A program made the translations under genes and the position numbers. A DNA stretch of 47,933 bases from an uncultured Gammaproteobacteria bacterium (lineage in GTDB: Bacteria > Patescibacteriota > Microgenomatia > Daviesbacterales > UBA10151), in assembly GCA_964362195.1 (NCBI GenBank), contig CAYICZ010000004.1, positions 1-47,933 on the forward strand, given 5' to 3'. This document shows, in pieces, positions 699-32,772 of this stretch (positions within the stretch are counted from its first letter, which is position 1; each line of letters begins with the position of its first letter). The notes under the pieces are model-generated. The model did not search any database, was not told the origin of the DNA, and worked only from the letters and a program-made list of their open reading frames with translations.

Positions 699-1913
699 AT
701 GGAAAAAAGCAAAAAATCACCGCTTTTCTTTATCTATTTTGCCACTTTTGTAAACATTATTGGCTTTGGCATGGTCTTTCCTCTGCTGCCTTTTTATGCC
801 AGAGAATTTCAGGCCTCGGAAACTTTAATTGGCCTTTTGGCCTCCTCTTTTGCAGTGGGTGAGTTTTTCTTTGCCCCCATTTGGGGAAGATTATCCGACA
901 GGTTTGGCAGAAAACCGGTTATTTTAACCTCTCTTTTGGGCATCAGCTTTGCCTTCGGCTCATTCGCAGTTGCCAACAATTTAACCTGGCTTTTTATTGC
1001 CAGATTTTTGCAGGGAGTGTTTTCAGCCGGCACTTTTACCTCGGCATCAGCCTATGTGGCTGATATTACCACCAGGCAAGAGCGCATCCAGGGCATGAGC
1101 AAGCTGGGGGCATCGGTGGCAGCAGGATTCATCTTCGGCCCGGCAGTTGGAGGGATACTATCTTCCCTCAACCATCAGCTGCCCTTTTTTGCAGCCTCCG
1201 CTTTAACAATTGTTAATCTGATTTTTGTCCAAATACTGCTTAAAGAATCTTTAAAAGTTAAAGAAGAAAGATTAGTTTTAAAGGAGGGATTTTTAAATAT
1301 AAAAGCCATGTATCACGGCCTGCGGGGTGAGTTAGGAACACTTTTTATACTTATATTCTTATGGTCATATGCCCTCTCCAACAACCAGGTGGCAATTCCT
1401 CTTTTTGGGGCGGAGGTATTGGTTATTTCTGCTGTCACCATCGGTATCTTTTTTTCCCTGCAGGGTTTTACATCAGCTTTTGTTCAATGGTTTTTACTTG
1501 CCAAAATTTCCCATAAAATAGGGGAGCATCACGCGGCTGTTTTAGGGTTGTCAATAATGGCTTTAAGTTTGTTTTTGATGCCTTTCTCTGCCGTGCCGTA
1601 TCTTCTGGCGCTACTTATGATGGCCTTTTCCTTTGGTTCTGCCATTACCCGGCCAACTGTCCAGACTCTTATTTCCAAAAAAACCCACGAAGGCCAGGGT
1701 ACCACCATGGGCATTGCTGCCTCTTTTGAAAGTCTAGGGAGGATAATCGGACCGATTTTGGGCGGGGTTGTCTTTTATTCGCTTGGATACAAAGCAGCCT
1801 TTTTAATGGTGGTAGTAGTTATTGCCGCAATGTTATTTTATGTAATTCTTAAAAAGAAATTCCTAAAACCCGAGGCCCGTCCTGAGCGAAGTCGAAAGGT
1901 ATCTACTTACTAG
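699..1913 (+). CDS. MFS transporter (TetA/DHA1-like drug:H+ antiporter family)
   Basis: About 12 hydrophobic segments; motif A GRLSDRFGRKPV; motif C GFIFGPAVGG. Confidence 0.93.
   Translation: MEKSKKSPLFFIYFATFVNIIGFGMVFPLLPFYAREFQASETLIGLLASSFAVGEFFFAPIWGRLSDRFGRKPVILTSLLGISFAFGSFAVANNLTWLFIARFLQGVFSAGTFTSASAYVADITTRQERIQGMSKLGASVAAGFIFGPAVGGILSSLNHQLPFFAASALTIVNLIFVQILLKESLKVKEERLVLKEGFLNIKAMYHGLRGELGTLFILIFLWSYALSNNQVAIPLFGAEVLVISAVTIGIFFSLQGFTSAFVQWFLLAKISHKIGEHHAAVLGLSIMALSLFLMPFSAVPYLLALLMMAFSFGSAITRPTVQTLISKKTHEGQGTTMGIAASFESLGRIIGPILGGVVFYSLGYKAAFLMVVVVIAAMLFYVILKKKFLKPEARPERSRKVSTY
1875..1900 (+). repeat. Small palindromic element in frame in the MFS C-terminus (ARPERSRK)
   Basis: GTCCTGAGCGAAGTCGAAAGG; shares GTCCTGAGCGA (11 bp) with the copy at 26315. 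Confidence 0.65.
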
Positions 1914-1974
1914 AATGTGCGGAGCTTAAGTTCTCGTTTGATTTATAAACCTATAGTCGGTATAATGGCAAATT

Positions 1975-3165
1975 ATGGCTAGTCCGGAGACCAGAAATAC
2001 TAATTTTGTCGGCCTAGATCCGTTAAGATTTTCCCCGGCTGCCAGGTTTGTAAAGGAAGCTGTGGAGGATGGCGCTCATTTTGGCAATGCAGAAAAAGAC
2101 CCTGCATGGGAGAGAAAAGTTGATATCACCCTGACATATTATTTTGGTAAATACGAAGGGGTGGGTAACAACCGGTCATTATCCGCCGGGGAAGTGGGCA
2201 GGATATTTCCCGGGCAAAACGGTTCTCTAACCAGAGCAAGGGTCTGGCAGATTTTGAATGAAACAGTGCCTAACTTATATCAGGGGTGCTCCCCGGATAT
2301 TCAAGGCAGATATTCCCCGGAGGCGCTAAAAAAACAGCTGGCCAAGCCGACATTTTTAACTCTTCCAAAAGGCACCACCAGAAATATTATTGCGGATGTG
2401 GATGCTGGTGTGCCTTATACCAGCTTAAAAGAAAGATATAATTATGATAGTTTATCTGTAGCCAGGAGAATATTAGAGCCGTTTGGAATATTTGTGCCGT
2501 ATGGGGAGAGCAGACAGCAGACCCTATTGTTTATAGAACAGTTGAAAAAAGTAGGGCCGGAGACTGACAAAGAAACCATCAAGGCCCTGCTTGGACAGGC
2601 AAAGAATGGTTTTATGATGAATCATAAGGACATTTTTGATCAATATTTTATATCCCTGTCAAAACTACTGTACAACTTGGGATTTCATTTTACTCATAAA
2701 GACGGCGGTATAACTGTTTTTATAAATAAACTGGGTCAGTCTGATATTCCCTTTGGACAATTTATACGGGAGGTTAAAAGCGGCCCTCAAAAAGGACCAC
2801 ACCGGTATTTTTTTGTGTTTAGGGTACAGAAAAAACAGATTGAAGAAACTTTATTACCTGATCCGGATTTGGCAAGATTTTTGCAAAGCAAGGTCAGCCA
2901 AATAACCGGGGTAAAGGCAGAAAAACTGCCAAATACCCATGAATTACGACATAGTGGAGATTACCGGAGTGTAGGCAATCTATGCAGGAGACTGGGAATC
3001 AAAGTTGGAGGACGAGGGCTTAAGATGATGGAAGATTTATTAGCTGATTGTCCTTGTCCAGTTTTTAAATATTCAAATGATAATAGTTATTTTTATCCGG
3101 TTGAATTCGAAAGCCAATTGGCTGATTTTTTAGTTACATTGACTCAAGCATGGAAGGGGGAGTAG
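1975..3165 (+). CDS. Orphan protein with sigma70 region 4-like HTH
   Basis: 396-aa ORF; LSAGEVGRIF...LTRARVWQI resembles TLxEVGxxFxVTRERVRQI; own promoter TTGATT-17-TATAAT-8-ATG. Confidence 0.6.
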   Translation: MASPETRNTNFVGLDPLRFSPAARFVKEAVEDGAHFGNAEKDPAWERKVDITLTYYFGKYEGVGNNRSLSAGEVGRIFPGQNGSLTRARVWQILNETVPNLYQGCSPDIQGRYSPEALKKQLAKPTFLTLPKGTTRNIIADVDAGVPYTSLKERYNYDSLSVARRILEPFGIFVPYGESRQQTLLFIEQLKKVGPETDKETIKALLGQAKNGFMMNHKDIFDQYFISLSKLLYNLGFHFTHKDGGITVFINKLGQSDIPFGQFIREVKSGPQKGPHRYFFVFRVQKKQIEETLLPDPDLARFLQSKVSQITGVKAEKLPNTHELRHSGDYRSVGNLCRRLGIKVGGRGLKMMEDLLADCPCPVFKYSNDNSYFYPVEFESQLADFLVTLTQAWKGE

Positions 3166-3177
3166 AATTGGCCGGCT

Positions 3178-4221
3178 ATGGCAGAAAGAGTAGATACAAG
3201 ACCAAGGGTAGTTTTGGCCCTGTTGGCAGGCATGACTTTGGGAGTAACCTTTGGTTTAACCGGATGTTCTGAACCACTTCCCGCAGTCAGCACGGTATCT
3301 CCGTTAAATGAGGGGGATTTAAATCCTCCCACTGAAGCGGAACTTGGTAGAGAAGCCCTGGACCTTTTTACAAAGCCATCTCGATTCAGCAGACAGCTGG
3401 TTATTGAAAGGGCTAGATTTTGGCAGGAAGTATCTGGTGGGAATGGAGATTTTAAAATTAACAGGGGATATTTGGTGGCAGGGAATGGCAGATTGTTTAG
3501 TTTAGGTACACCTGACGGATTGACCATTGCCAATGTTTTGGTAGAAGCAAGTCTTATGAATAGATTTCCCGATGCGGCGCCCTGGTGGAAAGCACTGCCT
3601 GATACGGCTCTTGATGATATTTGGTGGATGTCAAAAAGAGTCACTATTTCACCTCTTTCCACAAATTTTATCAGTCCGCATGATTTAGTGGACTTAGCCC
3701 GAGGCATGCGAATTCTTGAATCAGCTGGCCAGGAAATACCTATTAGTGTGGCAATTAATCCCACTAAGCGTCTGCCAGCCAAAACACTTAATTTTACTGG
3801 GGAACCGTACAGAGATTTGGCTGTTTTTGTTTTGGAGAAAAATCCTAATCTGCTGGAAGATTATAAAAAAGCTGTGGATGAGGCTTTAGCTAATATCAGC
3901 CAACCATCTTTGCGGCTGGAGTTTCTTAGTGTCAGTAAATACGGGTACCTGACTTACCAAGACAGCCCAAAACAGGAACTCTTAACCACCCTTGCCTACT
4001 TTTTAAGGAATGCGGAAGATATTAAAAGGAGAATAGAAGTTGCCAAGAAAGCAGGGTTTACAGATGAGGCGGGAATTTTAGAAGTTAAACTTAAGATACT
4101 TAAGCAGTGGCTGGAAAGACCGGTTAAAGATACGGCTTCTTTAGGAATGTCTTTGCTGCAGACTTCAAATGAGGCTTTCCATCCGGGCTGCCCCGAATGC
4201 AGGCTACTGTTTCCTCAATAG
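3178..4221 (+). CDS. Hypothetical putative lipoprotein
   Basis: 347-aa ORF; hydrophobic N-terminus ending LTGC (lipobox-like); C-terminal CPEC; promoter TTGACT-18-TAGAAT. Confidence 0.6.
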   Translation: MAERVDTRPRVVLALLAGMTLGVTFGLTGCSEPLPAVSTVSPLNEGDLNPPTEAELGREALDLFTKPSRFSRQLVIERARFWQEVSGGNGDFKINRGYLVAGNGRLFSLGTPDGLTIANVLVEASLMNRFPDAAPWWKALPDTALDDIWWMSKRVTISPLSTNFISPHDLVDLARGMRILESAGQEIPISVAINPTKRLPAKTLNFTGEPYRDLAVFVLEKNPNLLEDYKKAVDEALANISQPSLRLEFLSVSKYGYLTYQDSPKQELLTTLAYFLRNAEDIKRRIEVAKKAGFTDEAGILEVKLKILKQWLERPVKDTASLGMSLLQTSNEAFHPGCPECRLLFPQ

Positions 4222-4239
4222 CATTCCGATACAGTTTCG

Positions 4240-4458
4240 TTAGAATCCTCTTTCCATTCTATCAAAGATGAGCTGTAGTCCCAACCTAAGTTTTGCAGAT
4301 AATGGTCTCGTCTGGGAGTGTTGTCTTATGTGTCTGCGACGGGGACGCTTTTCTGTGTATGGAGGATTTACATCACCAAGCTCGGGAGTTATTACCCCGC
4401 GTAACTGCCCAAGAAAAGCATGAAGTTCTACTCTTGAACCTCTGACTAACTCCCGCAT
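4240..4458 (-). CDS. Small basic hypothetical protein
   Basis: 72-aa ORF filling the gap without overlap; TGnTATATT upstream. Confidence 0.45.
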   Translation of the reverse strand: MRELVRGSRVELHAFLGQLRGVITPELGDVNPPYTEKRPRRRHIRQHSQTRPLSAKLRLGLQLIFDRMERGF

Positions 4459-4484
4459 ATGTTTAGAAGCCTAATATACCACTG

Positions 4485-5108: not shown

Positions 5109-5126
5109 TATGTTATATTACCATAT

Positions 5127-5366: not shown

Positions 5367-5420
5367 GTTATATCCTATAGGATTTGATATATCCAACGAG
5401 AAGTGGTATGATTTTAGCGT

Positions 5421-6204: not shown

Positions 6205-6213
6205 GAACCCCTT

Positions 6214-7257
6214 TTAGGCAGCTTCAGCTAAATTTTCCAAATCCGGGAGGATAGGTTCCGAGATACCACTAACTTTTCTCCAGAAATACTGTTCTACATC
6301 CCAAATATAAACTGTTTCCGGTTTAAGACCATAAGTTTCAATCAGCCCTCTTTGGGCTTTGCCTGCTTCATAAGGATAGACCGCCCCCATTTTGTTATCT
6401 GTCCAGGGAAACATCTGCAGTTCCGGTACCTTTACTCCTTTGCCAAAAACTCTGCACAGAGAAGCTAAAGCCTGGATAACTGACCAGGGTGGCATTGCTT
6501 TATCAGCCTGGTTGTAGATATTTATACCCAAGATGTCGCTATTTTCGATCACATGCAAAATTAGTTCAGGGGTATCAAACGGGATGTTTTGTAGGATCGG
6601 GCGGCGGTAAGGGTCCAGTGATCTGACCATTTGTACCTCCTGAAGATTGAATTCTGGCGAAACATAGCGGTAATTGGTTAGCGGCAATCTTTGGGAGAAA
6701 GCTTCATTTTCCACCTGGATGGAGGTGATCTCTCTGATCGGGAGGAAACGTTCGGAAACGTCTGTTAATAATTTAAAAACCAGATCTCTAAACTCCGGAT
6801 CAGTATCAATTTGACCGGGATGTTTCAAATAAGGAAATTTTTCCTCCAGATCTTTTGGTACATGCACCTCTGGCCACCAAATGGTTTTTACCCCCATCTG
6901 TAAGGCAATACGCTTACCTTTTTTAATAGCTTCATTAATACAGAAATCTATTGTAGAATAATCGGCTTTGCCGTTGTAACCGTAGGCCACATCAAAAGGT
7001 ACGGCAATTCTAACGTTTCCAAAGGGTAAAGCAAGTATGTCGTTAATAGTCTGACGAAAGTTTAATCCTAACCAATTAATTCTTTTAGGACTAAGATTTA
7101 CCCCCATTTGATCAGGTGATAATTTTAAGCTGGTTTGGGTCGTTTCTTGAGGTTGATCATTTAGTCCCAGGCCTACTTCGGCAGTCAATAAAAGAGCAGC
7201 CATGCCTTTTAAAAAATCACGTCTGGTAGTCTGACTTTCTTTCGGTTCGATAGTCAT
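6214..7257 (-). CDS. Putative clan GH-A glycoside hydrolase-like protein with twin-arginine-like N-terminus
   Basis: TRRDFLK followed by a hydrophobic helix; VRIAVPF, QVENE (acid/base-like), VPELQ (nucleophile-like). Confidence 0.6.
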   Translation of the reverse strand: MTIEPKESQTTRRDFLKGMAALLLTAEVGLGLNDQPQETTQTSLKLSPDQMGVNLSPKRINWLGLNFRQTINDILALPFGNVRIAVPFDVAYGYNGKADYSTIDFCINEAIKKGKRIALQMGVKTIWWPEVHVPKDLEEKFPYLKHPGQIDTDPEFRDLVFKLLTDVSERFLPIREITSIQVENEAFSQRLPLTNYRYVSPEFNLQEVQMVRSLDPYRRPILQNIPFDTPELILHVIENSDILGINIYNQADKAMPPWSVIQALASLCRVFGKGVKVPELQMFPWTDNKMGAVYPYEAGKAQRGLIETYGLKPETVYIWDVEQYFWRKVSGISEPILPDLENLAEAA

Positions 7258-8171
7258 TTATTTGTTGATTTTAGGGGAAAATCCGGGTAGCCGTTCAGGA
7301 AATCTTTTAAAGATATAGCTTTTTTGCCTTCCATTTGCAACATATTTCCTGGTAGGAATTTAACTATGCGGGCTTGCCCGCTGGAGCCCGAAGGGCGAAA
7401 GCGGGTCCAAACCCCCGGCCAGGGGTAATATGCCCGAATCATTCTGTTTAATTTTTGTGGATCAGGTTGGTTATCAATGGGGAAGTAGCCACTTTCTCTG
7501 GTTAATTTATCACAAAATGTAGCGATCGCATCATTTTGTTTTTTCAAAGTTATCTTTCCTGCAGCAAAATCCTCAATAATTTTGGGTAAAACCTCAGCCG
7601 CTTGCTGAAACATTTTTTTACTCAAAGTATCAAAATTATCTTCATTAAAGAGCTCTAAAGTATCTTGATAAATAATGGGTCCATGATCCACTTCCTCATC
7701 CATTTTTATGATAGTTATTCCGGTTTCGCTGTCTCCATTTAATATAGCTTGCTGAATAGGTGAAGGACCTCTGTATTTGGGTAAGAGTGATGGGTGAACA
7801 TTCAAGCTTCCGAATTTTGGAATGTTTAAGATAAATTTTGGAATAATTTTGCCGAAAGAAGCAACTACAAATAGATCAGGCTTGAAATTTGAGATTTGGG
7901 ATTGGAAATTTTCATCCAGCTTTCCGGAAGTAAATATTGGTCCTTTGAAATAATTAGCTACAGCAGAATCTGAAGCAGTAACCACTGCCACAACCTCAAA
8001 ATTATCTTCCAGCGCCTGCAAGATAGGAATAACAAAAAGATCACTTCCAAAAAAGATAACTTTAATTTCGTTTAGTTTGATCTTTCCTAAATATTTTTCA
8101 ACCTCTTTCATATAAACCGGGATGATTTCTAAAGTAGAAAGGGGGACTTGTGGATGCTGCAGCTTTATCAT
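7254..8171 (-). CDS. fmt: Methionyl-tRNA formyltransferase
   Basis: IFFGS, LNVHPSLLPKYRGPSPIQ, VDHGPI, IRAYYPWPG; adjacent to def. Confidence 0.95.
   Translation of the reverse strand: MIKLQHPQVPLSTLEIIPVYMKEVEKYLGKIKLNEIKVIFFGSDLFVIPILQALEDNFEVVAVVTASDSAVANYFKGPIFTSGKLDENFQSQISNFKPDLFVVASFGKIIPKFILNIPKFGSLNVHPSLLPKYRGPSPIQQAILNGDSETGITIIKMDEEVDHGPIIYQDTLELFNEDNFDTLSKKMFQQAAEVLPKIIEDFAAGKITLKKQNDAIATFCDKLTRESGYFPIDNQPDPQKLNRMIRAYYPWPGVWTRFRPSGSSGQARIVKFLPGNMLQMEGKKAISLKDFLNGYPDFPLKSTNK
7368..7405. repeat. Palindromic element in frame in fmt (RFRPSGSSGQAR)
   Basis: CCCGCT-GGA-GCCC-GAA-GGGC-GAA-AGCGGG stem/internal loop/stem; GC-rich island in an AT-rich gene. Confidence 0.8.
7882..7909. repeat. 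Period-7 tract in fmt (NFQSQISNF)
   Basis: TTGAAAT TTGAGAT TTGGGAT TGGAAAT. Confidence 0.75.
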
Positions 8172-9067: not shown

Positions 9068-9076
9068 GAGTATATT

Positions 9077-9340
9077 TTAACTTATTTTCTTAAGTTCTGA
9101 AAGCTTCCACATAAACACCTTAGCTTTGTTTTTGGCATTGTAGTAGCCTTTGGTATAATTTAGGGCCTCCTCTAAAATTTGTCTTGGCAACTCTTTGGCA
9201 AGCTTTATATATAAAGAATAGTGCTTGGTATCATCCAGCGATTCTGCCAGGAATACTCCATAAACCTGAAATTCTTTGCTCAAATTTTTCGGCCTGTCTT
9301 TAAATTTAGTCTCGCCGAGTATATTATTTAGTGACTTCAT
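9077..9340 (-). CDS. Hypothetical small helical protein
   Basis: 87-aa ORF overlapping the stop of the upstream ligase gene. Confidence 0.7.
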   Translation of the reverse strand: MKSLNNILGETKFKDRPKNLSKEFQVYGVFLAESLDDTKHYSLYIKLAKELPRQILEEALNYTKGYYNAKNKAKVFMWKLSELKKIS

Positions 9341-11306
9341 TGAGTTGCTGTTTGGCTTCCGGATAATCCGGCTTTAATTTTAGGGCTTGCTGCAGCACTT
9401 TTATTTCCTCATCTTTTTTAGTGCGCGAAGCGCGCGAGCTTTGCTCATTTTGGCTATCTAAAATTAAAGCTTTATTATAGTAAAGCTTGGGATCTGTTGG
9501 AGCTAAAGATATAGCCTGGTTTAGCGCATTTAAAGTTGTATCCAGATATTTGTTATCCAAAGAGGCCAATTCAAAATAGGTCCTGATAGCTGTTCTCCAA
9601 AAAGAGACATTTTTAGGGCTGTTCTTTAAAACCTGACCCATCTGGGCAACCGCTTCGTCTTTTAGCGCAGCAGATAAAGTTGCATCAGTTTGCTCTAAGG
9701 CTGCTGCAGCCTGGGCAGCGGAAAAAGCTAACTCAGATTGATAAAAAGGCTCGGAAGAATTCAGTTCCAAAGCAGAAGAAATGAAATTATATGCTTTGCC
9801 GGGATTTCCCAAATCAAAAGCTTTTTGGCCCTGGTTAAATAGTGTGTCAGCTGTCCAGATTTTAATAACAGAATATAAAAGATAAATGGTGAATAGTGCC
9901 ACAATAACTTTAGCAGCTTGGGCATAAATTGGCCTTTTGTAAATAAAACTAAACCCTAAACCCGATACCCTGAACCCTGTTGTGGCTTCTGTTGCCACAA
10001 AAACAAGTGCCGGGAAAAGATAGAAAAATACGGCAATAATCACAACTGAGAATAAAAAGAAGTTATAGATAAGAAAGGAAATATATGAAGAAAGCAAAGC
10101 GACTATAAAAATATTAGGCTTTGACCCCAGGATTTTTTTGAAGCTCCAATAAATAAATGAGCCTATTAAGAGTATATATGTGCCAAATCCCAAAATTCCT
10201 GTGTTGGCTAAATAATTTAAATATTCATTATGAGCCTTGTTATATAAAAAGTCCCACTCAGAAGTTTTATTATGCTCAGAGGGCCTATATTGATAATATG
10301 AATAAGCAAAAGTTTCCAAACCTGTTCCTAAAATAGGGTTATGTTTAAAGATTTCCAAAGCCCCTTTCCAGACAATAAAGCGGATTTGTCCGGATTCAGT
10401 TCCCCCATTTTCCAGCTGAGTTGTAGAAGTTTGAGGTAGTGCTATAGCAGGTCTGGTAGGTGAGGCAAACCTGGAAACAAGCCTGAGAGAGGTTAAGGCA
10501 GATCCAAATAATAAATTAACTGCCAAAAAAGAACCAAGCACTATTAAAATAATTTTGTTTTGTTTGAGTTTGGAAAATGCAAATCCTAAAAATACTGCCA
10601 TTCCTCCTATTAACCCTAATGTTGGACCTCTGGAGTAAGTGAAGGTAAAAGCCAGATAATAAATAATAAGTACCAAGTACCAAATTCCAAGTTCCAAATT
10701 CTTTTTAGCTGCTAAAAAGAAATATAAAGCAGGGAAGATAAGCATAGCAAGATATGCAGCCAGCCAATTGGGCTGGCCTAAGGTAGCAAATACCCTGGCC
10801 TGTACATCCTGTACCCAGCAGGAGGCATTAAACTCACTCCGTAAAATAATACAGGATAAGGAAACGCCAAAATGTTCAAAAATACCCCACAAAGAAATAA
10901 TAAATCCGGCAGCTAAACCAAATTTTAAAGTTGTTAAAACTTGTGTCTTGTTAATATTTGAAACAAAGGCCCAGTAAAGTAATAGATAAGAGATAATAGA
11001 TAATAATCCTCCATTGGATCTGGAATAATATCCCCAAATGGAGGTATGGATATCTATGGAAAAAATAGTAGATAAAACATTTGCTCCTAAAAATAGTAAA
11101 AGAGGAATATCTAGCGGAGTACGTTTAATCGTTAATCGTTTATCGTTTATCGTTTTTAAAACCCAAGTTCCAATAATAAGAATAGTGATTCCGTAAGTAA
11201 GCAACATCTTGTTATATTCAAAAAGCTCGTAATTTAGCGAAGTCCAAAAAAGTGGAGTGAGGAAAAAGAGAAGATAGAAAGAGTAACTGATAATTTTATC
11301 TAACAT
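9324..11306 (-). CDS. O-antigen ligase (Wzy_C/O-OTase-like) family membrane protein with C-terminal TPR repeats
   Basis: Many TM helices; RVFATLGQPN, TYSRG, R..VWKGA, AHNEYL; TPR-like AISLAPTDP and ALKLKPDY. Confidence 0.88.
   Translation of the reverse strand: MLDKIISYSFYLLFFLTPLFWTSLNYELFEYNKMLLTYGITILIIGTWVLKTINDKRLTIKRTPLDIPLLLFLGANVLSTIFSIDIHTSIWGYYSRSNGGLLSIISYLLLYWAFVSNINKTQVLTTLKFGLAAGFIISLWGIFEHFGVSLSCIILRSEFNASCWVQDVQARVFATLGQPNWLAAYLAMLIFPALYFFLAAKKNLELGIWYLVLIIYYLAFTFTYSRGPTLGLIGGMAVFLGFAFSKLKQNKIILIVLGSFLAVNLLFGSALTSLRLVSRFASPTRPAIALPQTSTTQLENGGTESGQIRFIVWKGALEIFKHNPILGTGLETFAYSYYQYRPSEHNKTSEWDFLYNKAHNEYLNYLANTGILGFGTYILLIGSFIYWSFKKILGSKPNIFIVALLSSYISFLIYNFFLFSVVIIAVFFYLFPALVFVATEATTGFRVSGLGFSFIYKRPIYAQAAKVIVALFTIYLLYSVIKIWTADTLFNQGQKAFDLGNPGKAYNFISSALELNSSEPFYQSELAFSAAQAAAALEQTDATLSAALKDEAVAQMGQVLKNSPKNVSFWRTAIRTYFELASLDNKYLDTTLNALNQAISLAPTDPKLYYNKALILDSQNEQSSRASRTKKDEEIKVLQQALKLKPDYPEAKQQLNEVTK
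9421..9440. repeat. GCGC-GAA-GCGC mini-hairpin in frame (SSRASRT)
   Basis: GTGCGCGAAGCGCGCGAGCT interrupts a TPR helix pair. Confidence 0.6.
9946..9980. repeat. Period-7 tract in ligase gene (TGFRVSGLGFS)
   Basis: AAACTAA ACCCTAA ACCCGAT ACCCTGA ACCCTGT. Confidence 0.8.
10664..10701. repeat. Period-7 tract in ligase gene (NLELGIWYLVL)
   Basis: TAATAAG TACCAAG TACCAAA TTCCAAG TTCCAAA TTC. Confidence 0.8.
11122..11157. repeat. Period-7 tract in ligase gene (KTINDKRLTIK)
   Basis: CGTTAAT CGTTTAT CGTTTAT CGTTTTT; 11126-11154 is the exact reverse complement of 14488-14516. Confidence 0.9.
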
Positions 11307-24299: not shown

Positions 24300-26282
24300 A
24301 TGCAAAATTTAGTAATAGTTGAATCACCAACAAAGGCCCGCACTTTGCAAAAGTTTTTAGGGGATAAATATCAAATTGAAGCCTCAATGGGCCATGTTCG
24401 GGATTTACCAAAGTCAGAACTGGGGGTGGATATTGAGAATAATTTTGAACCGGAATATATTATCCCCAGAGATAAGAAAAAGAGGGTTAATGAATTAAAA
24501 AAGCTGGCATTAGGTGCAGATAAGCTATATTTAGCTACAGATCCTGACCGTGAAGGGGAAGCCATAGCCTGGCACATTGCGCATATATTAGAGAAAAGAA
24601 AAGAGGATATGCAAAGGGTAGAGTTTCATGAAATCACAGAAAGTGCCATAAAAGATGCATTTACTCATCCCCGTGAGCTTGATTTAAAACTGGTTGATGC
24701 CCAGCAAGCCAGAAGAATTCTAGATAGGCTTGTAGGTTATAAGCTTTCACCTTTGCTTTGGGCAAAGATTAAAAAAGGATTATCCGCAGGAAGAGTGCAA
24801 TCAGTTGCGCTAAGGCTGATAGTTGAGCGGGAAAGAGAAGTTTTAGCTTTCAAGCCAAATGAATATTGGAGTATAGAAGCAGAGTTGGAAGCAGAAAAAG
24901 ATAAATTCATAGCAAACTTAATAGAACAAAATGGAAAAAAGCTGGAGATTAAAAACAAGCAAGAGGCTGATGGACATCTTAAAAATCTTGAGAAAGCAAA
25001 ATATGAAGTTTCAAAAGTTATACAAAAAGAAGTCAGACGCTATCCTTATCCTCCTTTTACCACTTCAACTTTGCAGCAAACTGCGGCAAATAGGTTGGGA
25101 ATGTCTGCTAAAAAAACTATGATGCTTGCCCAAAATTTATATGAACATGGATTTATTACCTACATGAGAACAGATTCTGTAAATTTATCCACTCAGGCAA
25201 TCTCTCAGGTGAGAGGTTATATTGAAGACTCAATCGGCAGGGCATATTTGCCGAAAACTGCCAGAGTTTTTAAATCCAAATCTAAAAATGCCCAGGAAGC
25301 ACATGAGGCAATCAGGGTGACAGATGTAAGCATAAAGGGTGAGGAATTAAAGGGAAAGGGGAATTTCAACAAGGATCACATCAGATTATATGATTTGATT
25401 TGGAAAAGGTTTGTGGCTTGCCAAATGAATGAGGCAGTAATGGATCAAACTGCCATTGATATTTCAGCAGAGCAGTATTTATTTAGAGCCACAGGTTCTG
25501 TTATTAAATTTGACGGTTGGCTAAAGCTATATGGAAAAGATGTTGAAGAGGAAGATACGGAGAAAAATCAGGCTTTGCCAAAATTGTCTGAGAATCAAAT
25601 ATTAAAATTACTCCGGCTTCTTCCCGGCCAACATTTTACAGAGCCTCCTCCTAAGTTTACTGAAGCCTCTTTAATTAAAAAACTGGAAGAGTTGGGGATA
25701 GGCAGGCCTTCCACTTATGCTCCTATTTTATCAACCATTCAGGAGCGATTTTATGTGGAAAAAATAGAGCGGAAGTTTATTCCCACAAAATTAGGGATAA
25801 CTGTGATAGACTTCCTGCTTAAATATTTTTCGGATATTTTGGATTATTCGTTTACAGCTAAAATGGAGGATGAACTGGATGAAATTGCCAGAGGAGAGAG
25901 AAAGTGGAAACCTACTATAAAAGAGTTTTACGAACCTTTTGAGAAAAAGCTTGAGGAAACAGAGGAAAAAGCTGAAAAAGTGAAAATGGAACTTGAGTAT
26001 GTAGATAAAAAGTGCCCGCAGTGCGGTAAGCAATTAATTGTCAGGGTTGGTAAGTTTGGTAAATTCCTGGCCTGCTCCGGATTTCCTGAGTGTAAATATA
26101 CGCAAGGTCTGGAGGAAAAAATTGATGCTAAATGTCCGCTGGATGGCGGAGATATTATGGTAAGAAGAACCAAGAGAGGTAAAACTTTTTATGGCTGTAA
26201 AAACTGGCCGACTTGCAAATTTGCTTCCTGGACAAAACCTAAAGGAGCCAATCCAGATCCAACTGTTGACACAAAAGGCTAA
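24300..26282 (+). CDS. topA: DNA topoisomerase I
   Basis: LVIVESP, ATDPDREGE, SAGRVQS, ITYMRTDS, C-terminal zinc ribbons. Confidence 0.97.
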   Translation: MQNLVIVESPTKARTLQKFLGDKYQIEASMGHVRDLPKSELGVDIENNFEPEYIIPRDKKKRVNELKKLALGADKLYLATDPDREGEAIAWHIAHILEKRKEDMQRVEFHEITESAIKDAFTHPRELDLKLVDAQQARRILDRLVGYKLSPLLWAKIKKGLSAGRVQSVALRLIVEREREVLAFKPNEYWSIEAELEAEKDKFIANLIEQNGKKLEIKNKQEADGHLKNLEKAKYEVSKVIQKEVRRYPYPPFTTSTLQQTAANRLGMSAKKTMMLAQNLYEHGFITYMRTDSVNLSTQAISQVRGYIEDSIGRAYLPKTARVFKSKSKNAQEAHEAIRVTDVSIKGEELKGKGNFNKDHIRLYDLIWKRFVACQMNEAVMDQTAIDISAEQYLFRATGSVIKFDGWLKLYGKDVEEEDTEKNQALPKLSENQILKLLRLLPGQHFTEPPPKFTEASLIKKLEELGIGRPSTYAPILSTIQERFYVEKIERKFIPTKLGITVIDFLLKYFSDILDYSFTAKMEDELDEIARGERKWKPTIKEFYEPFEKKLEETEEKAEKVKMELEYVDKKCPQCGKQLIVRVGKFGKFLACSGFPECKYTQGLEEKIDAKCPLDGGDIMVRRTKRGKTFYGCKNWPTCKFASWTKPKGANPDPTVDTKG

Positions 26283-26303
26283 ATTTAGTATTATATTGAG
26301 GGC
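26266..26303 (+). promoter_or_regulatory. pyrG promoter with GGGC at the predicted start site
   Basis: TTGACA (26266-71), 17 bp, TATTAT (26289-94), then ATTGA GGGC. Confidence 0.7.
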
Positions 26304-26311
26304 CTCAAAAA

Positions 26312-26337
26312 CTTGTCCTGAGCGATTAGCGAAGGAT
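26312..26337. repeat. Small palindromic element in the pyrG leader
   Basis: TCCT-GA-GC-GATTA-GC-GA-AGGA; related to 1875-1900. Confidence 0.7.
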
Positions 26338-26356
26338 CCCCCAATTAAAATTAACT

Positions 26357-27970: not shown

Positions 27971-28093
27971 GCAAAATTTGTTGTACAGGTAGATCAATTA
28001 AAGGGAAGTTTAGAATTCAAAAAGACTGGCATTCGCGGTCGGTCGAAACCTTAGGCTAGTCCAGTCATCGTGATGTAATTATTGTAACATAAT

Positions 28094-28756: not shown

Positions 28757-29234
28757 AACAAAAACCCAGGTAGGCTTAATAATTATTTTAGCAGTATTTG
28801 CCTTAAGTTTACTTTTGTCTCAAAAAGCTACTCCAAATGTTTCTCCTCTTTTTAGTCTTAAAAGAGTTCAGGAAAAAGTTTTTCTTAAATTAAAATCAAA
28901 TCCGGAAGCAAGAGTAGATTATATGGTTTTTTTATTAAACAACAGATTATATGAACTGGATGCAGTAGTTAAGGCTAAAAGCTATGACTTCGTGCTTCCA
29001 TCCGCTTCCAGGTATTCAACTTTAGCCGGGCAAATTACAGATTTAATTATTGCAAATAATATAAAAGATAGTATAGAGCCTGTTAAAAAGATATTTGAAA
29101 ATCATAGTAAAGTTTTAAATGATTTGTATGTATTTTACCCTGAAAATATTCAGGATAATGTGGAATGGAAATATATTCAGGATGATATAAACTATTTAAA
29201 AATTTATCTTGATCAGCTATCATCTGTTAAATAA
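28746..29234 (+). CDS. Membrane-anchored DUF5667-like protein
   Basis: TM then P..PLFSLKRVQEKV...RL.E. Confidence 0.6.
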   Translation: MSIKTKTQVGLIIILAVFALSLLLSQKATPNVSPLFSLKRVQEKVFLKLKSNPEARVDYMVFLLNNRLYELDAVVKAKSYDFVLPSASRYSTLAGQITDLIIANNIKDSIEPVKKIFENHSKVLNDLYVFYPENIQDNVEWKYIQDDINYLKIYLDQLSSVK

Positions 29235-29869
29235 TGGTAAAAAAATCTTCAAAAAAAACATCTACCCAAGGTATAGTTGGAACTTTGCCTGATTGGGTAA
29301 TTAAAGAATATATTAAAAAAAAGATCATTAAAATTGACCCGCTTCCAAAAGAATGGGAAGAAGCAGTGGATGAGGTCACCATAGATTTTCATTTGGGAAA
29401 TAAACTAAGAGTTTTTAGCGGGGATGGCTGGGATATTATAGATACCAAATATGCCACGAAAGTTGATATGGAAAAAATGATGAAGCTGGGGGAGCTAAAA
29501 CCAGGTCAGCCATTTATTTTAACAGACCATGATTTTGTGATTGCCACTACTAAAGAAAAACTAACCTTGCCTGATAATATTGTGGGTCATTTGCATGGAA
29601 AATCATCTTTAGCAAGACTGGGAGTGGTTGTCCATTCAACTGCTGCCAGGTTTGACCCGGGTTGGGATGGGCATCCGGTTTTGGAATTTGGCACTTTTTT
29701 AAAAGGTAAAAAGTTAGTAATTTATGAAGGATCCCCAATTTGTGCTTTTTCTTTTGAAAAGCTATCAGCACCGGTGAGTAGATCTTATAAAGCTTCTCCT
29801 AATAATAGATATGGGGGATCAGATATGCCGCAAGTTTCTAATTTAATGGGAAAAAGAAAAAGGAAATGA
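29234..29869 (+). CDS. dcd: dCTP deaminase
   Basis: IDFHLG, GKSSLARLG, HSTA, DPGWDG, VLEF. Confidence 0.88.
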   Translation: MVKKSSKKTSTQGIVGTLPDWVIKEYIKKKIIKIDPLPKEWEEAVDEVTIDFHLGNKLRVFSGDGWDIIDTKYATKVDMEKMMKLGELKPGQPFILTDHDFVIATTKEKLTLPDNIVGHLHGKSSLARLGVVVHSTAARFDPGWDGHPVLEFGTFLKGKKLVIYEGSPICAFSFEKLSAPVSRSYKASPNNRYGGSDMPQVSNLMGKRKRK

Positions 29870-30426
29870 GCGTACTTGGAATAAATGAAATCCACAAAAG
29901 AATTAAAAAGCACGGCTTAATTAAAAATTTAGGCAAAAGAGAGCTTGAGAACCCGGAAGGAGTGGGAATTGATCTTCGCTTAGGTTCTGTTCATAAAATA
30001 ATCAAGGGTGGAGCTTTTATAGAAATGGATGGAGTGGAGTTGGGAAAAAGATTAGGGGTGGAAACAAAACTAGTTGCGCAGTTTGTGGAAGGAAAAGTAC
30101 AAGAGGTTGTTATAAAACCTGGACAATATTTTTTAGTACAAACTTACGAGGAAATAAATACACCTTTGGATTTAATGCCTTTACTTCATCCCAGAACTTC
30201 CCTTTTTAGATCAGGACTACTGCTTTTAAATTCTAAAACAGATCCGGGCTATGTTGGCAAACTCACCATGGGACTTACAAATTTATCCCCCTTTCCTGTA
30301 AAGCTGCAACTGGGTGCCAGGATTTGTAATATAATCTTTCATAAAATAGAAGGAAAAACTGTTAAGTATAGGGGGCAGCATCAGGGAGGCAGAGTTTCTC
30401 CCAAAAAAACAGAAAGGCAGGTATGA
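29866..30426 (+). CDS. dCTP deaminase/dUTPase family paralog, probably dUTPase
   Basis: [26 protein letters not shown]; lacks the deaminase Glu (LTMGL). Confidence 0.7.
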
Positions 30427-31376
30427 AAAAGCACGAAGAATACCAATATCTGGATCTATTAAAAGACATCATGAAAAATGGGGTAAACAAGCCTGTTTTT
30501 AATAATCCGGGGGTCCACATCAAATCTGTTTTTGGCAGGCAACTAAGGTTTGATTTATCAAAAGGTTTTCCTTTGCTTACAACCAAAAAAGTATTTTTGC
30601 GCGGAATTATTCATGAACTGCTTTGGTTTATAAAAGGGGATTCAAATATTAAATATCTGGTTGATTGTGACGTGCATATTTGGGATGAATGGGCGTATAA
30701 AGCTTACAAAGTGCAAAGTGCAAAGGGAAAAGTGAAAAGTTTAACACAGGAAGAATTTATACAAAAAATAAAACAGCTACCAACCAGTGATCCTTTTGTT
30801 AAAAATTGGGGGGATTTGGGAAATGTTTATGGAGTGCAGTGGAGAAAATGGAAAACATCTGATGGAAGGATAATTGATCAGCTGGCTTGGGCCATTAATG
30901 AGTTAAAAACCACCCCTTTTAGAAAATCAATTGTTGTTTCTGCCTGGAATCCGGAATTTATTTATGAGATGGCCTCACCTGGGAAATCCATGGCCCTGCC
31001 TCCCTGCCATACTCTTTTTCAATTTAATGTAAAGGCTGGCAGGTTATCACTGCAACTTTATCAGCGCTCTGCAGATACATTTTTAGGTGTTCCTTTCAAC
31101 ATAGCATCTTATGCTTTATTTACGCAGATGGTCGCTCAAGTGGTGGGATTTAAACCCGGAGAATTTGTCCATACATTTGGTGACGTACATATATATAGTA
31201 ATCATATGAGTCAGGTTAAAGAGCAATTAAAGAGGGTTCCAAGAAAATTTCCAAAAATGAAAATTAATCCTAAGATAAAAAATATTGATGATTTTAAACT
31301 GGAAGACTTTACCCTTGAGAACTACAATCCATATCCTCCTATTAAGGGAGAGGTGACAGTAGTAGGAGGATTTTGA
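30423..31376 (+). CDS. thyA: Thymidylate synthase
   Basis: [31 protein letters not shown]. Confidence 0.97.
30707..30741. repeat. Period-7 tract in thyA ([11 protein letters not shown])
   Basis: CAAAGTG CAAAGTG CAAAGGG AAAAGTG AAAAGTT. Confidence 0.85.
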
Positions 31377-31855
31377 TGCAAATTAGTATGATTGCGGCAA
31401 TAGCATCTGAAAATAGGGCTTTAGGAAGAGATAATGAATTAATTTATAAAATTCCTGAAGATTTAAAACGGTTTAAAGAATTAACCTCAGGTCATGTTGT
31501 TATTATGGGCAGAAAAACTTTTGAATCAATTGGTAAAGCGCTGCCTAACAGGATAAATATTGTTATTACCCATGATCCTAATTTTTCAGCAGAAAATGTG
31601 GTGGTTGCCCATTCTCTTGATGAAGCATTGAGACTGGCTGAATTAAAAGAAGAAAAAGAAGTTTTCGTAATTGGTGGAGGAATGCTTTATAAAGAAGCAA
31701 TTGAAAAAGCAGATAAACTTTATTTAACAATTGTAGAAGGCTCACCTGATGCAGATACTTATTTTCCGGATTATTCTGAATTTAAAAAGAAAGTCTTTGA
31801 AGAAAGCCATGAGGAAGATGGTTTGAAGTATAAATTCTTAGACCTTGAAAGATAA
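31376..31855 (+). CDS. folA: Dihydrofolate reductase
   Basis: IAA, EDLKRFK, MGRKTFESI, LPNR, IGGG, DTYFP. Confidence 0.96.
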   Translation: MQISMIAAIASENRALGRDNELIYKIPEDLKRFKELTSGHVVIMGRKTFESIGKALPNRINIVITHDPNFSAENVVVAHSLDEALRLAELKEEKEVFVIGGGMLYKEAIEKADKLYLTIVEGSPDADTYFPDYSEFKKKVFEESHEEDGLKYKFLDLER

Positions 31856-31941
31856 CATATTTTATAGTAAACTTACACACATTACACACTCATAATTTTA
31901 AGTCTCTGAAGCTATATAACTATGAGGAGGATCAAGAGACT
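31845..31941 (+). promoter_or_regulatory. rpsB promoter and S2-leader (t44-like) element
   Basis: TTGAAA-17-TAAACT; leader has ACACAC twice and a CTCATA/TATGAG stem ending at GAGGAGG, as in S2 autoregulatory leaders. Confidence 0.6.
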
Positions 31942-32772
31942 ATGTATAAGCTACCTACTTTAGAAGAACTTTTGGAAGCTGGTGTTCATTTTGGACACCA
32001 GGTTAGACGTGGTCATCCCAGGATGAAGCCATATATTTATGGAGCCAGAGAAGGTGTCCACATTATTGATTTAACTTTATCTGAAAAAAATTTAAAAGAA
32101 GCTTGTGAATTTGTATATAATTTAGGCAGGGATGGAAAAGTTCTGCTTTTTGTAGGAACAAAAAAGCAAGCCAGACCAATTGTGGAAGAAGCTGTAAAAG
32201 CTTCAGTTGCCCCTTACATGATTGAAAGGTGGATGGGTGGATTTTTAACTAATTTTGAAGAGATTAAAAAAAGAATTAAGCTTTTGAAAGACTTAAGAGA
32301 ACAGAAAACAAAAGGTGAGTTGTCCAAGTACACAAAAAAAGAGCAACTCTTACTTGATAGAAAAATGATTGGTTTAGAAAAAGATTTTAAGGGAGTTATG
32401 GATATGGTTGGCATGCCGGATGCTATATTTGTAGTGGACGGCGTCTCAGATAATATTGCTGTTAAAGAAGCAATCAGGCTGGGGATAAAAGTGGTGGCTA
32501 TTGCCGATTCAAATTGTAATGTGTCTGAAATAGATTACCCGATTCCGGGAAATGATGATGCCATAAAATCTATTACAATATTAGTGGGGGCAGTAGCGAC
32601 AGCTTACGAAGAAGGGAAAAAATCCCACTCCGCTAAAGCTTCGCAAGACAAGGAAGCAGCAGAGAAAAAAGCTCTTGAGGTTGAATTACCCGAGGAGATA
32701 AAGTTGGAAGTGGCTGAAGCAGAGGAAAAGATTGAAAAAGCAGCTGTTAAAGATGCAGAAAGAGTAGTATGA
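31942..32772 (+). CDS. rpsB: 30S ribosomal protein S2
   Basis: LLEAGVHFGH, FVGTKKQA, RWMGGFLTN, IPGNDDA. Confidence 0.98.
   Translation: MYKLPTLEELLEAGVHFGHQVRRGHPRMKPYIYGAREGVHIIDLTLSEKNLKEACEFVYNLGRDGKVLLFVGTKKQARPIVEEAVKASVAPYMIERWMGGFLTNFEEIKKRIKLLKDLREQKTKGELSKYTKKEQLLLDRKMIGLEKDFKGVMDMVGMPDAIFVVDGVSDNIAVKEAIRLGIKVVAIADSNCNVSEIDYPIPGNDDAIKSITILVGAVATAYEEGKKSHSAKASQDKEAAEKKALEVELPEEIKLEVAEAEEKIEKAAVKDAERVV
32623..32653. repeat. Palindromic element in frame in the rpsB tail (SHSAKASQDK)
   Basis: Minus strand TCTTGC-GAA-GC-TTTA-GC-GGA-GTGGGA; same GAA/GGA internal loop as the fmt element. Confidence 0.65.

What the first reader, a model, noticed from the sequence alone, without database searches (positions are those of the whole stretch)
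1875..32653. Family of tiny GA-internal-loop palindromes inserted in frame in proteins
Seen: GC-rich 20-40 bp islands in the MFS tail (1875, ARPERSRK), fmt (7368, RFRPSGSSGQAR), the TPR region (9421, SSRASRT), the rpsB tail (32623, SHSAKASQDK) and the pyrG leader (26312). Most fold as outer stem, GA/GA or GGA/GAA internal loop, short GC stem; all contain CGAAG on one strand. Known: GCGAAGC-type GNA loops and sheared G.A pairs form exceptionally stable ssDNA hairpins; REP elements are spread by RAYT/HUH enzymes; Rickettsia palindromic elements insert in frame. Inference: a structure-conserved, sequence-variable ssDNA element much smaller than RPEs, mobilised in trans and adding new peptide loops.
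Basis: partly seen in the sequence, partly recalled or inferred. Interest (0 to 1): 0.7.

Follow-up and report, generated by a model that had tools for sequence, protein, structure and literature searches.

The report
Tagged DNA hairpin repeats inside genes
Four of the five GC-rich islands are real copies or insertions of small DNA hairpin repeats of an already described kind, here in a variant form that sits in frame inside housekeeping genes of a tiny groundwater bacterium.

Summary
Four of five sites are real; the rpsB site is not an insertion and does not fold. Sites 1875 (MFS tail) and 26312 (pyrG leader) belong to a repeat family matched by GAGCRNAGN{0,1}CGAAR: 10 copies versus 0 for the reversed control in this genome, 161 versus 18 in 15 family relatives, 563 versus 168 in 201 genomes of the phylum. 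A longer tagged form occurs in many phyla. CGAAG alone is not enriched.

The anatomy is a GTC tag, an AT-starting outer stem, a tandem GA/GA internal loop, a variable inner hairpin and an ATC tail. This matches CGTC-tagged REPs (Di Nocera 2013) and the NTS/SRM repeats of Ssn GIY-YIG ssDNA nucleases (Chenal 2025). The published SRM pattern misses it (0 of 94 copies).

GA-type copies flank nine Ssn-like genes, including two in the same family. This genome has no such gene, so its roughly 16 copies look orphaned. RAYT genes carry different hairpins.

Copies are read in frame in UvrA (twice), LeuRS, ArgRS, PolA and FemAB. The fmt and TPR islands are true in-frame insertions. The fmt codon is a turnover hot spot, and its hairpin is nucleotide-identical across three genera.

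This scan had already reported in-frame RAYT-type REPs in this genome.

Verdict: new variant of a known kind.

The parts
1879..1903 (+). GA-type tagged hairpin copy A (GTC tag, CCT/AGG outer stem, GAGCGAAGTCGAA core). Read as RPERSRK in a 13-residue C-terminal extension of an MFS transporter.
   Evidence: The closest orthologs stop at ..FLKP / ..FLKKE. MFS_1 family.
26315..26338 (+). GA-type tagged hairpin copy B (GTCCTGAGCGATTAGCGAAGGATC). Intergenic, between topA and pyrG, 19 nt before the pyrG start codon.
   Evidence: Folds as a 4-bp outer stem / GA / GC / loop at -3.0 kcal/mol. The same inner GAGCGATTAGCGA flanks an Ssn-like gene in family relative G206 (L306).
7368..7405 (+). fmt insertion. 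The hairpin CCCGC / TGGA / GCCC-GAA-GGGC / GAAA / GCGGG lies on the + strand. It is read on the - strand as RFRPSGSSGQAR in the Fmt C-terminal domain. It has no GTC-AT tag.
   Evidence: Fold -8.0 kcal/mol, z -1.96. 0 of 99 nt differ among own, G211 and G208, against 243 of 783 in the flanks. Tree of states.
9420..9446 (-). 27-nt in-frame insertion (EQSSRASRT) in a TPR loop of a Wzy_C/TPR protein. It holds two mini-hairpins, GCGCG-AAG-CGCGC and GAGC-TTT-GCTC. A second, intergenic copy is at C21:3175.
   Evidence: (absent from 14 of 14 orthologs).
Not an insertion, no fold, not a family member.
   Evidence: The orthologs of G206 and G214 carry a GA-type variant (CCCTGAGCTTGTCGAAGGG, antisense) at the aligned place.

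Best explanation
The islands at 1875 and 26312, and about 14 further copies in this genome, are small tagged hairpin repeats. They belong to the class described as CGTC-tagged REPs (Di Nocera 2013), which is the same class as the NTS/SRM repeats bound and cut as single-stranded DNA by small GIY-YIG nucleases of the Ssn family (Chenal 2025).

They are a variant of that class. After the GTC tag comes an outer stem that usually starts with AT, then a tandem G.A/A.G internal loop, then an inner hairpin. The inner hairpin is minimal (GC-GAA-GC) in most copies but can be replaced by longer, unrelated stems. A tail of ATC closes the unit.

Shown:
- The family is enriched in this genome, its family and its phylum.
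- The same 26-mer occurs in many phyla.
- GA-type units flank Ssn-like genes in inverted orientation in nine cases.
- The Ssn N-terminal motif differs between GA-type-flanked and perfect-hairpin-flanked genes.
- Copies survive in frame at permissive places in housekeeping proteins.
- Single codon positions in Fmt and UvrA hold different units in different genera.

Inferred:
- The GA-type unit is the recognition site of one Ssn subclade.
- Spread and exchange happen on single-stranded DNA through that enzyme or with its help.
- The copies in this genome are orphans left after loss of the enzyme gene.
- The untagged fmt and TPR insertions are diverged or related units of the same kind (about even odds).
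For: Enrichment of GAGCRNAGN{0,1}CGAAR against the reversed control:
- 10 vs 0 in this genome.
- 161 vs 18 summed over 15 family relatives.
- 563 vs 168 over 201 phylum genomes; 114 genomes have more motif than control and 29 have fewer.

Hits are in Alpha-, Delta- and Gammaproteobacteria, Bacteroidota, Chloroflexi, Planctomycetota, Fibrobacter, Bacillota and others. 41 of 94 copies are one identical 26-mer.

Shared anatomy with the known class: GTC tag, AT at stem positions 1-2, ATC/CCA-like tail.

Co-location: canonical NTS units flank GIY-YIG genes in Patescibacteria genome G177 and stand in clusters with GA-type units in G009.

GA-type units flank Ssn-like genes on one or both sides in L298 (G203, same family), L304 and L306 (same family), L300, L303, L039, L015, L156 (Bacillota) and L102 (Planctomycetota). 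Further adjacencies can be read from the tables: G028, G079 and G118 (+ 72) and G203 (+ 97).

Co-variation: the motif LYTG is in 7 of 9 GA-flanked Ssn proteins and 0 of 9 perfect-hairpin-flanked ones. My hand-computed hypergeometric probability is 36/31824. Kin are not independent.

In the phylum sample, Ssn-positive genomes hold more copies: mean 4.5 (n=61) against 2.0 (n=140), Mann-Whitney p 1e-6, uncorrected for kinship.

In-frame copies in this genome are in UvrA (twice), LeuRS, ArgRS, PolA, FemAB and MFS.

Insertion status: Fmt, TPR, and UvrA hot spots in 20 aligned sequences.

Nucleotide-level conservation of the fmt hairpin. The tree needs at least 4-5 events at the one fmt codon.
Against: - The published degenerate SRM pattern matches 0 of 94 GA-type copies. 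It gives one unrelated hit in this genome.
- This genome has no Ssn group-1 gene. Its best match scores 62 bits, against at least 109 bits for true ones. Its three small GIY-YIG genes are other types and carry no GA-type unit in the flanks printed (about 250 nt, less at contig ends). One lies beside a group I intron. One lies among tRNA-like sequence (my reading; no tRNA scan was run).
- Within the family, copy number does not depend on Ssn. My sums give a mean of 12 in 8 positive genomes and about 9 in 8 negative ones. The closed genome G205 has 13 copies and no Ssn.
- 20 Ssn-negative phylum genomes hold 5 or more copies, and 11 Ssn-positive ones hold none.
- Only 2 of 80 cross-phylum loci have an Ssn-like gene within 1.2 kb.
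- Chenal 2025 shows nuclease activity and an effect on transformation, not transposition.
- The fmt and TPR units lack the GTC-AT tag.
- Window copies A and B lack the AT after GTC.
- Predicted folds of the minimal copies are no better than shuffles.
Confidence: 0.72

Rival explanations
1. REP elements spread by the genome's own RAYT (Y1/HUH) transposases.
For: There are five Y1_Tnp matches in the genome. Three of them are bracketed by their own hairpins, a REPtron layout. In-frame RAYT-type REPs were noted earlier in this genome (e1-1293137).
Against: The bracketing hairpins are different sequences: ACACCTCGAAGGTGT, AACCTCGGGGGTT and CCACCCCGGGGGTGG, with TAGCTT/AAGCTAAA-like flanks. No GA-type unit was seen in the printed flanks of any Y1 gene (by eye). 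GA-type units do flank GIY-YIG genes in relatives. Di Nocera 2013 found no RAYT flanked by CGTC units.
Confidence: 0.05
2. Locally selected structural signals, not mobile DNA. These would be mRNA or DNA hairpins acting as stabilisers, attenuators or terminators, each evolved or kept in place.
For: The fmt hairpin is frozen at synonymous sites. Copy B sits in the pyrG 5' leader and copy A at a gene's 3' end. Di Nocera 2013 argues that many REPs act as RNA elements.
Against: The same 26-mer lies in unrelated genes and phyla. Units are present or absent between sister genera, and different units sit at one codon. There are nested and doublet copies. Units bracket an enzyme gene. No Rfam family matched in the 8 loci searched: five with GA-type copies C, E, G, J+L and M, plus L074, L075 and L006. 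In the whole window only a tRNA reached threshold.
Confidence: 0.1
3. A separate hairpin class with an unknown mobiliser. Its resemblance to SRM/CGTC repeats and its neighbourhood to Ssn genes would be secondary, for example because hairpins insert next to other hairpins.
For: The published SRM pattern fails. Many Ssn-negative genomes are rich in copies. Units nest inside one another.
Against: The GA-type unit is the immediate inverted bracket of nine Ssn-like genes in four phyla. The Ssn sequence motif co-varies with unit type.
Confidence: 0.1
4. Chance GC-rich codon runs with accidental self-complementarity.
For: This holds for the rpsB stretch and for the class-I aaRS WPFATL match at C8:1882. 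CGAAG and the generic shape are not enriched.
Against: Counts are 10 vs 0, 161 vs 18 and 563 vs 168 against the reversed-pattern control. Ortholog alignments show true insertions.
Confidence: 0.03

Closest known systems
CGTC-tagged REPs (families CGTC-1 to CGTC-4; Di Nocera, De Gregorio and Rocco 2013, PMC3733652). I read the abstract, sections 6, 8 and 15, passages, and supplement searches. Figure 2 with the consensus sequences is not held.
   Same: An unpaired CGTC/TGTC tag, AT at the first two stem positions, and a short 3' tail. Head-to-head dimers occur. Units are found in several phyla. Intragenic in-frame units sit in uvrA, uvrB, DNA polymerase I and tRNA synthetases. No RAYT is attached. 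A relative's Fmt carries VIPAKAGI, the peptide listed for R. conorii CGTC-1.
   Different: The stems described there are 8-9 bp with 4-5 nt loops, and repeats with more than one stem mismatch were discarded. Here the stem is broken by a tandem G.A/A.G loop, the loop is 3 nt, and the inner hairpin is exchangeable. Patescibacteria are not mentioned. The strings GCGAGCG, CTGAGCG and VIAS/VILS are absent from the four supplement files.
NTS / Ssn-related motifs with Ssn GIY-YIG ssDNA nucleases (Chenal et al. 2025, PMC11893778). I read the outline, part 1 of 4 of Results (section 5), the Ssn-family subsection (section 10), the Discussion, Methods section 17, supplement 12, and searches of 13 of 14 supplements.
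   Same: An oriented 5' sequence (C)GTCAT, a hairpin and an ATC tail. The repeat-gene-repeat layout with inverted units is present. Distribution across phyla is wide.
   Different: The published search pattern matches 0 of 94 GA-type copies. NTS are rarely in genes (2% in N. meningitidis), whereas here 10 of about 16 copies lie in ORFs. This genome has no Ssn-type gene. No cleavage data exist for this unit.
Rickettsia palindromic elements RPE-4 and RPE-6 (equated with CGTC-4 and CGTC-1 in PMC3733652). The primary RPE papers are recalled, not read.
   Same: Small palindromic units translated in frame inside housekeeping proteins.
   Different: Different stems, and a different host group (obligate intracellular Alphaproteobacteria against free-living or episymbiotic CPR).
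REP/REPIN with RAYT (REPtron)
   Same: Short ssDNA hairpins dispersed in a genome, with units bracketing the enzyme gene. This genome has such systems too.
   Different: The tag and the enzyme family differ (HUH Y1 against GIY-YIG). GA-type units do not bracket the Y1 genes here.

Membership tests
CGTC-tagged REP superfamily (Di Nocera 2013) | Unpaired terminal tag CGTC (also TGTC or CCTC) | tested here: met
   All 8 well-preserved copies have GTC. CGTC or TGTC is present in A, B, C, E and G; AGTC or GGTC in M, N and P.
CGTC-tagged REP superfamily (Di Nocera 2013) | Complementary A and T at the first and second stem positions | tested here: inconclusive
   Met in C, E, G, M, N and P and in all 94 cross-phylum copies, where the search pattern itself required it. 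Not met in the two window copies A and B, which read GTC-CT.
CGTC-tagged REP superfamily (Di Nocera 2013) | Stem of 8-9 bp and loop of 4-5 nt | tested here: not met
   There are nine stem positions but two are G.A/A.G, and the loop is 3 nt (GAA/GTA) in the minimal unit. Inner hairpins of 2 to about 9 bp occur in other units.
CGTC-tagged REP superfamily (Di Nocera 2013) | Identity with one of the four published consensus sequences | not testable with these tools
   Figure 2 is not held. Supplement searches found no matching strings.
Ssn-related motif (Chenal 2025) | Match to HGTCWYN(0-2)YYVSBRHN(0-5)WNVSBRGN(0-2)RNCYNB | tested here: not met
   0 of 94 GA-type copies match. There is 1 unrelated hit in this genome. 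The same regex does find canonical NTS in Patescibacteria loci.
Ssn-related motif (Chenal 2025) | Hairpin of 20-50 nt with a conserved, oriented upstream sequence | tested here: met
Ssn-related motif (Chenal 2025) | Units flank ssnA homologues | tested here: met
   Met in relatives and other phyla: L298, L300, L303, L304, L306, L039, L015, L156 and L102. Not met in this genome, which has no such gene.
Ssn-related motif (Chenal 2025) | Strand-specific binding and cleavage of the ssDNA by the cognate Ssn | not testable with these tools
   Needs protein and oligonucleotide assays.
Ssn nuclease family (cd10448), for this genome's small GIY-YIG genes | Sequence membership in the Ssn clade | tested here: not met
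   The profile of 8 repeat-bracketed Ssn-like proteins (A2) scores this genome's genes at 62, 52 and 41 bits. Group-1 genes score 109-163 bits. CDD itself was not available.
RAYT-REP (REPtron) | Units bracket a Y1 transposase gene | tested here: not met
   Three of the five Y1 genes are bracketed by other hairpins. No GA-type unit was seen in the printed flanks of the five (by eye).

The most novel reading that the evidence does not exclude
The GA-loop units may be a modular, so far unnamed class of Ssn recognition sites. A fixed 'GTC-AT-stem + tandem G.A' platform would carry an exchangeable inner hairpin and co-evolve with its own Ssn subclade. In Daviesbacteria, these units would be inserted, swapped and precisely removed at fixed codon positions of essential genes. 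That would mean a GIY-YIG ssDNA nuclease acts as the engine of a site-specific, frame-preserving hairpin exchange. It would also work in genomes that lack the gene, with the enzyme supplied from outside, for example on DNA taken up from neighbours.
Probability: 0.25. Interest if true: 0.75.

Novelty: new variant of a known kind. Interest (0 to 1): 0.5.

Why it matters
CGTC-tagged REPs were reported in 2013 as repeats without an enzyme. In 2025 Ssn nucleases were tied to one flavour of them. This case adds three things.

First, a second, GA-loop flavour escapes the published search pattern, although the same 26-mer occurs in many phyla. Current SRM counts may therefore understate the system.

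Second, it suggests a pairing between repeat flavour and Ssn subclade. That can be tested directly with oligonucleotides, and it is useful for the ssDNA-cutting tools proposed for these enzymes.

Third, in gene-dense CPR genomes the repeats persist mostly inside essential genes. Single codons there act as turnover hot spots. This offers natural material for asking how such hairpins enter and leave DNA without breaking a reading frame.

Tried and rejected
- CGAAG as a family mark: not enriched.
- Generic GC-rich hairpin census: 234 against about 127 in Markov simulations, with no dominant family.
- Generic GTCAT + hairpin scan: 39 of 838 GTCAT sites, no better than other pentamers and dominated by AT-rich chance hairpins.
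- Covariance model: the MAFFT alignment A1 put the 3' halves out of register because of a 1-nt indel. I built no model and used patterns with a reversed-pattern control instead.
- Strand bias against GC skew: 10 of 16 copies on the G-rich strand, not informative.
- Rfam: no family for the elements.
- NCBIfam: no family assigned to this genome's small GIY-YIG proteins.
- Literature string searches for the unit found nothing relevant. A search for REP terms together with Patescibacteria/CPR showed no such paper among the 12 listed of 494.
- Public reads: three groundwater runs of one study, held only as contigs at about 4-6x. Contigs cover sites 1875, 7368 and 9421 without differences, and no joint skips an element. 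Contigs drop rare variants, so this says nothing about mobility.
- One script timed out and one failed on an index error. Both were rerun.

Full report
**The genome.** The window is contig C4 of an 815-kb, 38-contig genome with 37% G+C. Earlier notes of this scan call it Candidatus Daviesbacteria (Patescibacteria). They had already reported RAYT genes with REP hairpins, some in frame in def, holB and murC, on other contigs. I did not verify the taxon name myself.

**The observation.** All five stretches are at the stated coordinates and give the stated peptides. The host genes are as follows:
- an MFS transporter (699-1913)
- Fmt (7254-8171, minus strand)
- a Wzy_C/TPR protein (9324-11306, minus strand)
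- ribosomal protein S2 (31942-32772)
- the topA-pyrG spacer

The proposed common mark CGAAG is not enriched: 275 + 292 observed against 304 + 325 expected. The bare shape 'stem, GA, stem, loop, stem, GA, stem' is not enriched either: 15 and 22 cases against a mean of 19.7 over all 256 loop pairs. With a G/C-only inner stem the count is 7, against about 2 in ten Markov simulations.

**A real sequence family.** Sites 1875 and 26312 share GTCCTGAGCGA, an 11-mer found only twice in the genome. Loose patterns brought up about 16 related copies. Examples are CGTCATCCTGAGCGTAGCGAAGGATATC (C6) and GTCATTGCGAGCGAAGCGAAGCAATC (C5). The pattern GAGCRNAGN{0,1}CGAAR gives these counts against the reversed control:
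- 10 matches against 0 in this genome. One of the 10 is a conserved WPFATL codon run in a class-I aaRS and is probably chance.
- 161 against 18 when I sum the 15 family relatives.
- 563 against 168 over 201 genomes of the phylum. This total includes one unpublished genome, G154, with 1 match.

The outer stem co-varies between copies: ATCCT/AGGAT, ATTGC/GCAAT, ATTCT/AGAAT and ATTC/GAAT.

**Location of the copies in this genome.** Ten of the roughly 16 copies lie in ORFs:
- UvrA, twice (VILSKVEGS and SHPERSLAKGGQVEGS)
- LeuRS. One internal, decayed copy reads VIPSVAKDL. One copy sits at residues 10-20 of the open frame, before the first Pfam domain, so it is probably in the leader.
- ArgRS (antisense reading LRSFGSAQDN)
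- the PolA C-terminal fragment (VIASAAKQS)
- a FemAB-family protein (VIASEAKQS)
- the MFS tail
- two ORFs without a Pfam family

Six copies are intergenic.

**What kind of element it is.** A note on another genome (e1-5511026) pointed to Chenal et al. 2025 (PMC11893778). That paper describes NTS, CGTCATTCCCGCGMAVGCGGGAATCYRG, and the wider 'Ssn-related motifs'. These are hairpins bound and cut, as single-stranded DNA only, by about 94-residue single-domain GIY-YIG nucleases (Ssn). The Ssn genes are often bracketed by the repeats.

Di Nocera et al. 2013 (PMC3733652) had earlier defined the same repeats as 'CGTC-tagged REPs'. Their features are a CGTC/TGTC tag, A and T at the first two stem positions and a short tail. 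They report intragenic in-frame units in uvrA, uvrB, DNA polymerase I and tRNA synthetases, and 'no dedicated transposase'. They equate RPE-4 and RPE-6 of Rickettsia with CGTC-4 and CGTC-1.

The copies here have the GTC tag, mostly AT at the start of the stem, and an ATC tail. So they belong to this class by anatomy.

**How they differ from the published class.** The stem is interrupted by a tandem G.A/A.G pair and the loop is 3 nt. The published degenerate pattern matches none of 94 copies. The relevant strings are absent from the supplements of both papers, as far as these are held. Figure 2 of the 2013 paper is not held. I therefore cannot exclude that the unit is one of its four families.

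**Link to Ssn genes.** In the 80 loci fetched with flanks there are 94 copies, and 41 of them are one identical 26-mer. Only 2 of the 80 loci hold a small GIY-YIG gene within 1.2 kb. In both (L156 Bacillota, L102 Planctomycetota) the gene is bracketed at 10-12 nt by inverted GA-type units.

I built a profile (A2) from eight repeat-bracketed proteins. It separates true Ssn-like genes (109-163 bits) from other small GIY-YIG genes (89 bits or less) in 201 phylum genomes.

Flanks of Ssn-like genes fall into two sets:
- Nine are bracketed by GA-type units: L298, L304 and L306 in the same family as the window, plus L300, L303, L039, L015, L156 and L102.
- Nine are bracketed by perfect NTS-type hairpins: L296, L297, L299, L302, L305, L012, L021, L013 and L017.

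In the GA-type set the outer platform (for example ATTGC-GA ... GA-AGCAAT) is kept while the inner hairpin varies from 2 to about 9 bp. The unit downstream of the G206 gene has the inner GAGCGATTAGCGA of window copy B.

The protein motif LYTG occurs in 7 of 9 GA-bracketed proteins and 0 of 9 of the others. My hand-computed hypergeometric probability is 36/31824, and kin are not independent. Table coordinates give further adjacencies in G028, G079 and G118 and G203.

**Results against a simple Ssn dependence.**
- This genome has no Ssn-type gene. Its best match scores 62 bits. Its three small GIY-YIG genes are other kinds. One lies beside a group I intron. One sits among tRNA-like sequence by my reading, with no tRNA scan run.
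- Eight of the 15 family relatives have an Ssn-type gene, but copy numbers are similar with and without it. The single-contig genome G205 has 13 copies and none.
- In the phylum sample, Ssn-positive genomes have more copies: mean 4.5 against 2.0, p 1e-6, uncorrected. However, 20 negative genomes hold 5 or more copies and 11 positive genomes hold none.
- Chenal et al. show cleavage and an effect on transformation, not transposition.

I therefore read the copies in this genome as orphans of a system that is active, or was recently active, in the family.

**The fmt site.** Of 16 aligned Fmt sequences, 8 are empty at this codon (W-T-K-W-E/N-G-K-I-V). The other 8 are as follows:
- three (own, G211, G208) carry RFRPSGSSGQA(R/K)
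- two (G215, G214) carry a GA-type unit read antisense (FDSAQDK, FGSAQDK)
- one (G204) carries a third hairpin with a GAA/GAA loop
- one (G207) has an AT-rich insert
- one outgroup has another insert

Ten codons downstream there is a second site. There G201 carries a GA-type unit with a 6-bp inner stem, and G209 carries a canonical NTS read VIPAKAGI.

The window's hairpin shows 0 differences in 99 compared nucleotides among three genera, against 243 of 783 in the flanking 87 codons. Synonymous differences are 0 of 33 codon pairs in the hairpin, against 57 of 162 in the flanks.

I built a tree from Fmt, S2 and the Wzy_C/TPR protein (1143 columns, FastTree, rooted on G222). It places the two GA-type carriers in different subclades and two empty genomes inside the clade of carriers. 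At least four or five gains, swaps or exact losses are therefore needed at this one codon. The unit lacks the GTC-AT tag, so its membership rests on shape and position.

**The TPR site.** The 27-nt insert (EQSSRASRT) is absent from 14 of 14 orthologs. About 40 nt, flanks included, recur between two unrelated genes at C21:3175. It is a two-copy dispersed unit without the tag.

**The MFS site.** The three closest orthologs end at ..FLKP..FLKKE or ..FFRL. The window gene runs on for 13 residues through the unit. 'In frame' here means a replaced stop codon.

**The rpsB site.** The stretch aligns without a gap to the Lys/Glu/Ala-rich tails of orthologs, does not fold, and lacks the core. The G206 and G214 orthologs do carry a GA-type variant at the aligned place. 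The tail is therefore a permissive region, but the window's stretch is not shown to be an element.

**UvrA.** In 20 aligned UvrA sequences, seven insert blocks hold tagged units of several flavours in different genera. These include the exact VIASEAKQS unit in G205 and an in-frame inverted doublet in G202. This mirrors the uvrA cases of the 2013 paper.

**Checks that gave nothing.** These are listed under Tried and rejected. Public contigs of three groundwater runs cover three sites unchanged, which neither shows nor excludes mobility.

**Verdict.** The finding is real for four of five sites and belongs to a known kind: CGTC-tagged REP, equivalent to SRM of Ssn nucleases. In-frame units of that kind were described in 2013. 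The new points are:
- the GA-loop variant and its apparent own Ssn subclade
- its escape from the published search pattern despite a wide distribution
- its presence in CPR genomes, mostly inside essential genes and at turnover hot spots
- its persistence in genomes without the enzyme gene

Noticed in passing
G000 contig C11:17203-17395 (L006:1768-1960): A group I catalytic intron (Rfam RF00028, 73.4 bits) lies directly beside a 97-codon GIY-YIG open frame on the opposite strand (C11:16936-17154). The host gene of the intron was not identified.
   Followed up: no
G000 contig C12:1-400 and loci L016, L018, L022, L031-L034, L037: A second type of small GIY-YIG gene (MYYVYILKS...) sits between tRNA-like sequences (my reading; no tRNA scan was run). 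In C12 the same roughly 50-nt tRNA-like 5' part stands on both sides of the gene. These genes have no tagged hairpins.
   Followed up: partly
G000 contigs C2:27094-27790, C16:10590-11290, C15:11510-12260: Three RAYT-like Y1 genes are each bracketed by their own hairpin: ACACCTCGAAGGTGT, AACCTCGGGGGTT and CCACCCCGGGGGTGG. The first has 11 copies genome-wide. Two further Y1 genes (C1, C22) show no such hairpin.
   Followed up: partly
G000 contig C16:8381-8440 and C24:1790-1840: Nested units. The second UvrA copy has another hairpin (TCGCC-AAA-GGCGG) inside its core. The C24 copy looks like one unit inserted into another.
   Followed up: no
L266 (G202 UvrA) and L055 (G209 Fmt): In-frame composite inserts: an inverted doublet of tagged units, read as 35 residues in UvrA, and a canonical NTS followed by further hairpins in Fmt.
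   Followed up: no
G000 contig C22:9096-9764: There are five copies of CCCGGGTGGCCTA in a conserved context. The spacings are 135, 263, 135 and 135 nt, which suggests repeated protein domains in one gene.
   Followed up: no
window 26267-26295: TTGACA, 17 nt, TATTAT stands upstream of copy B. By eye, this would put the hairpin in the pyrG 5' leader. I did not run the promoter scan.
   Followed up: no
window 1-55 (minus strand): The 5' part of a tRNA gene (model positions 1-52 of 71), cut off at its 3' end by the window's start (Rfam RF00005, 41.3 bits).
   Followed up: no
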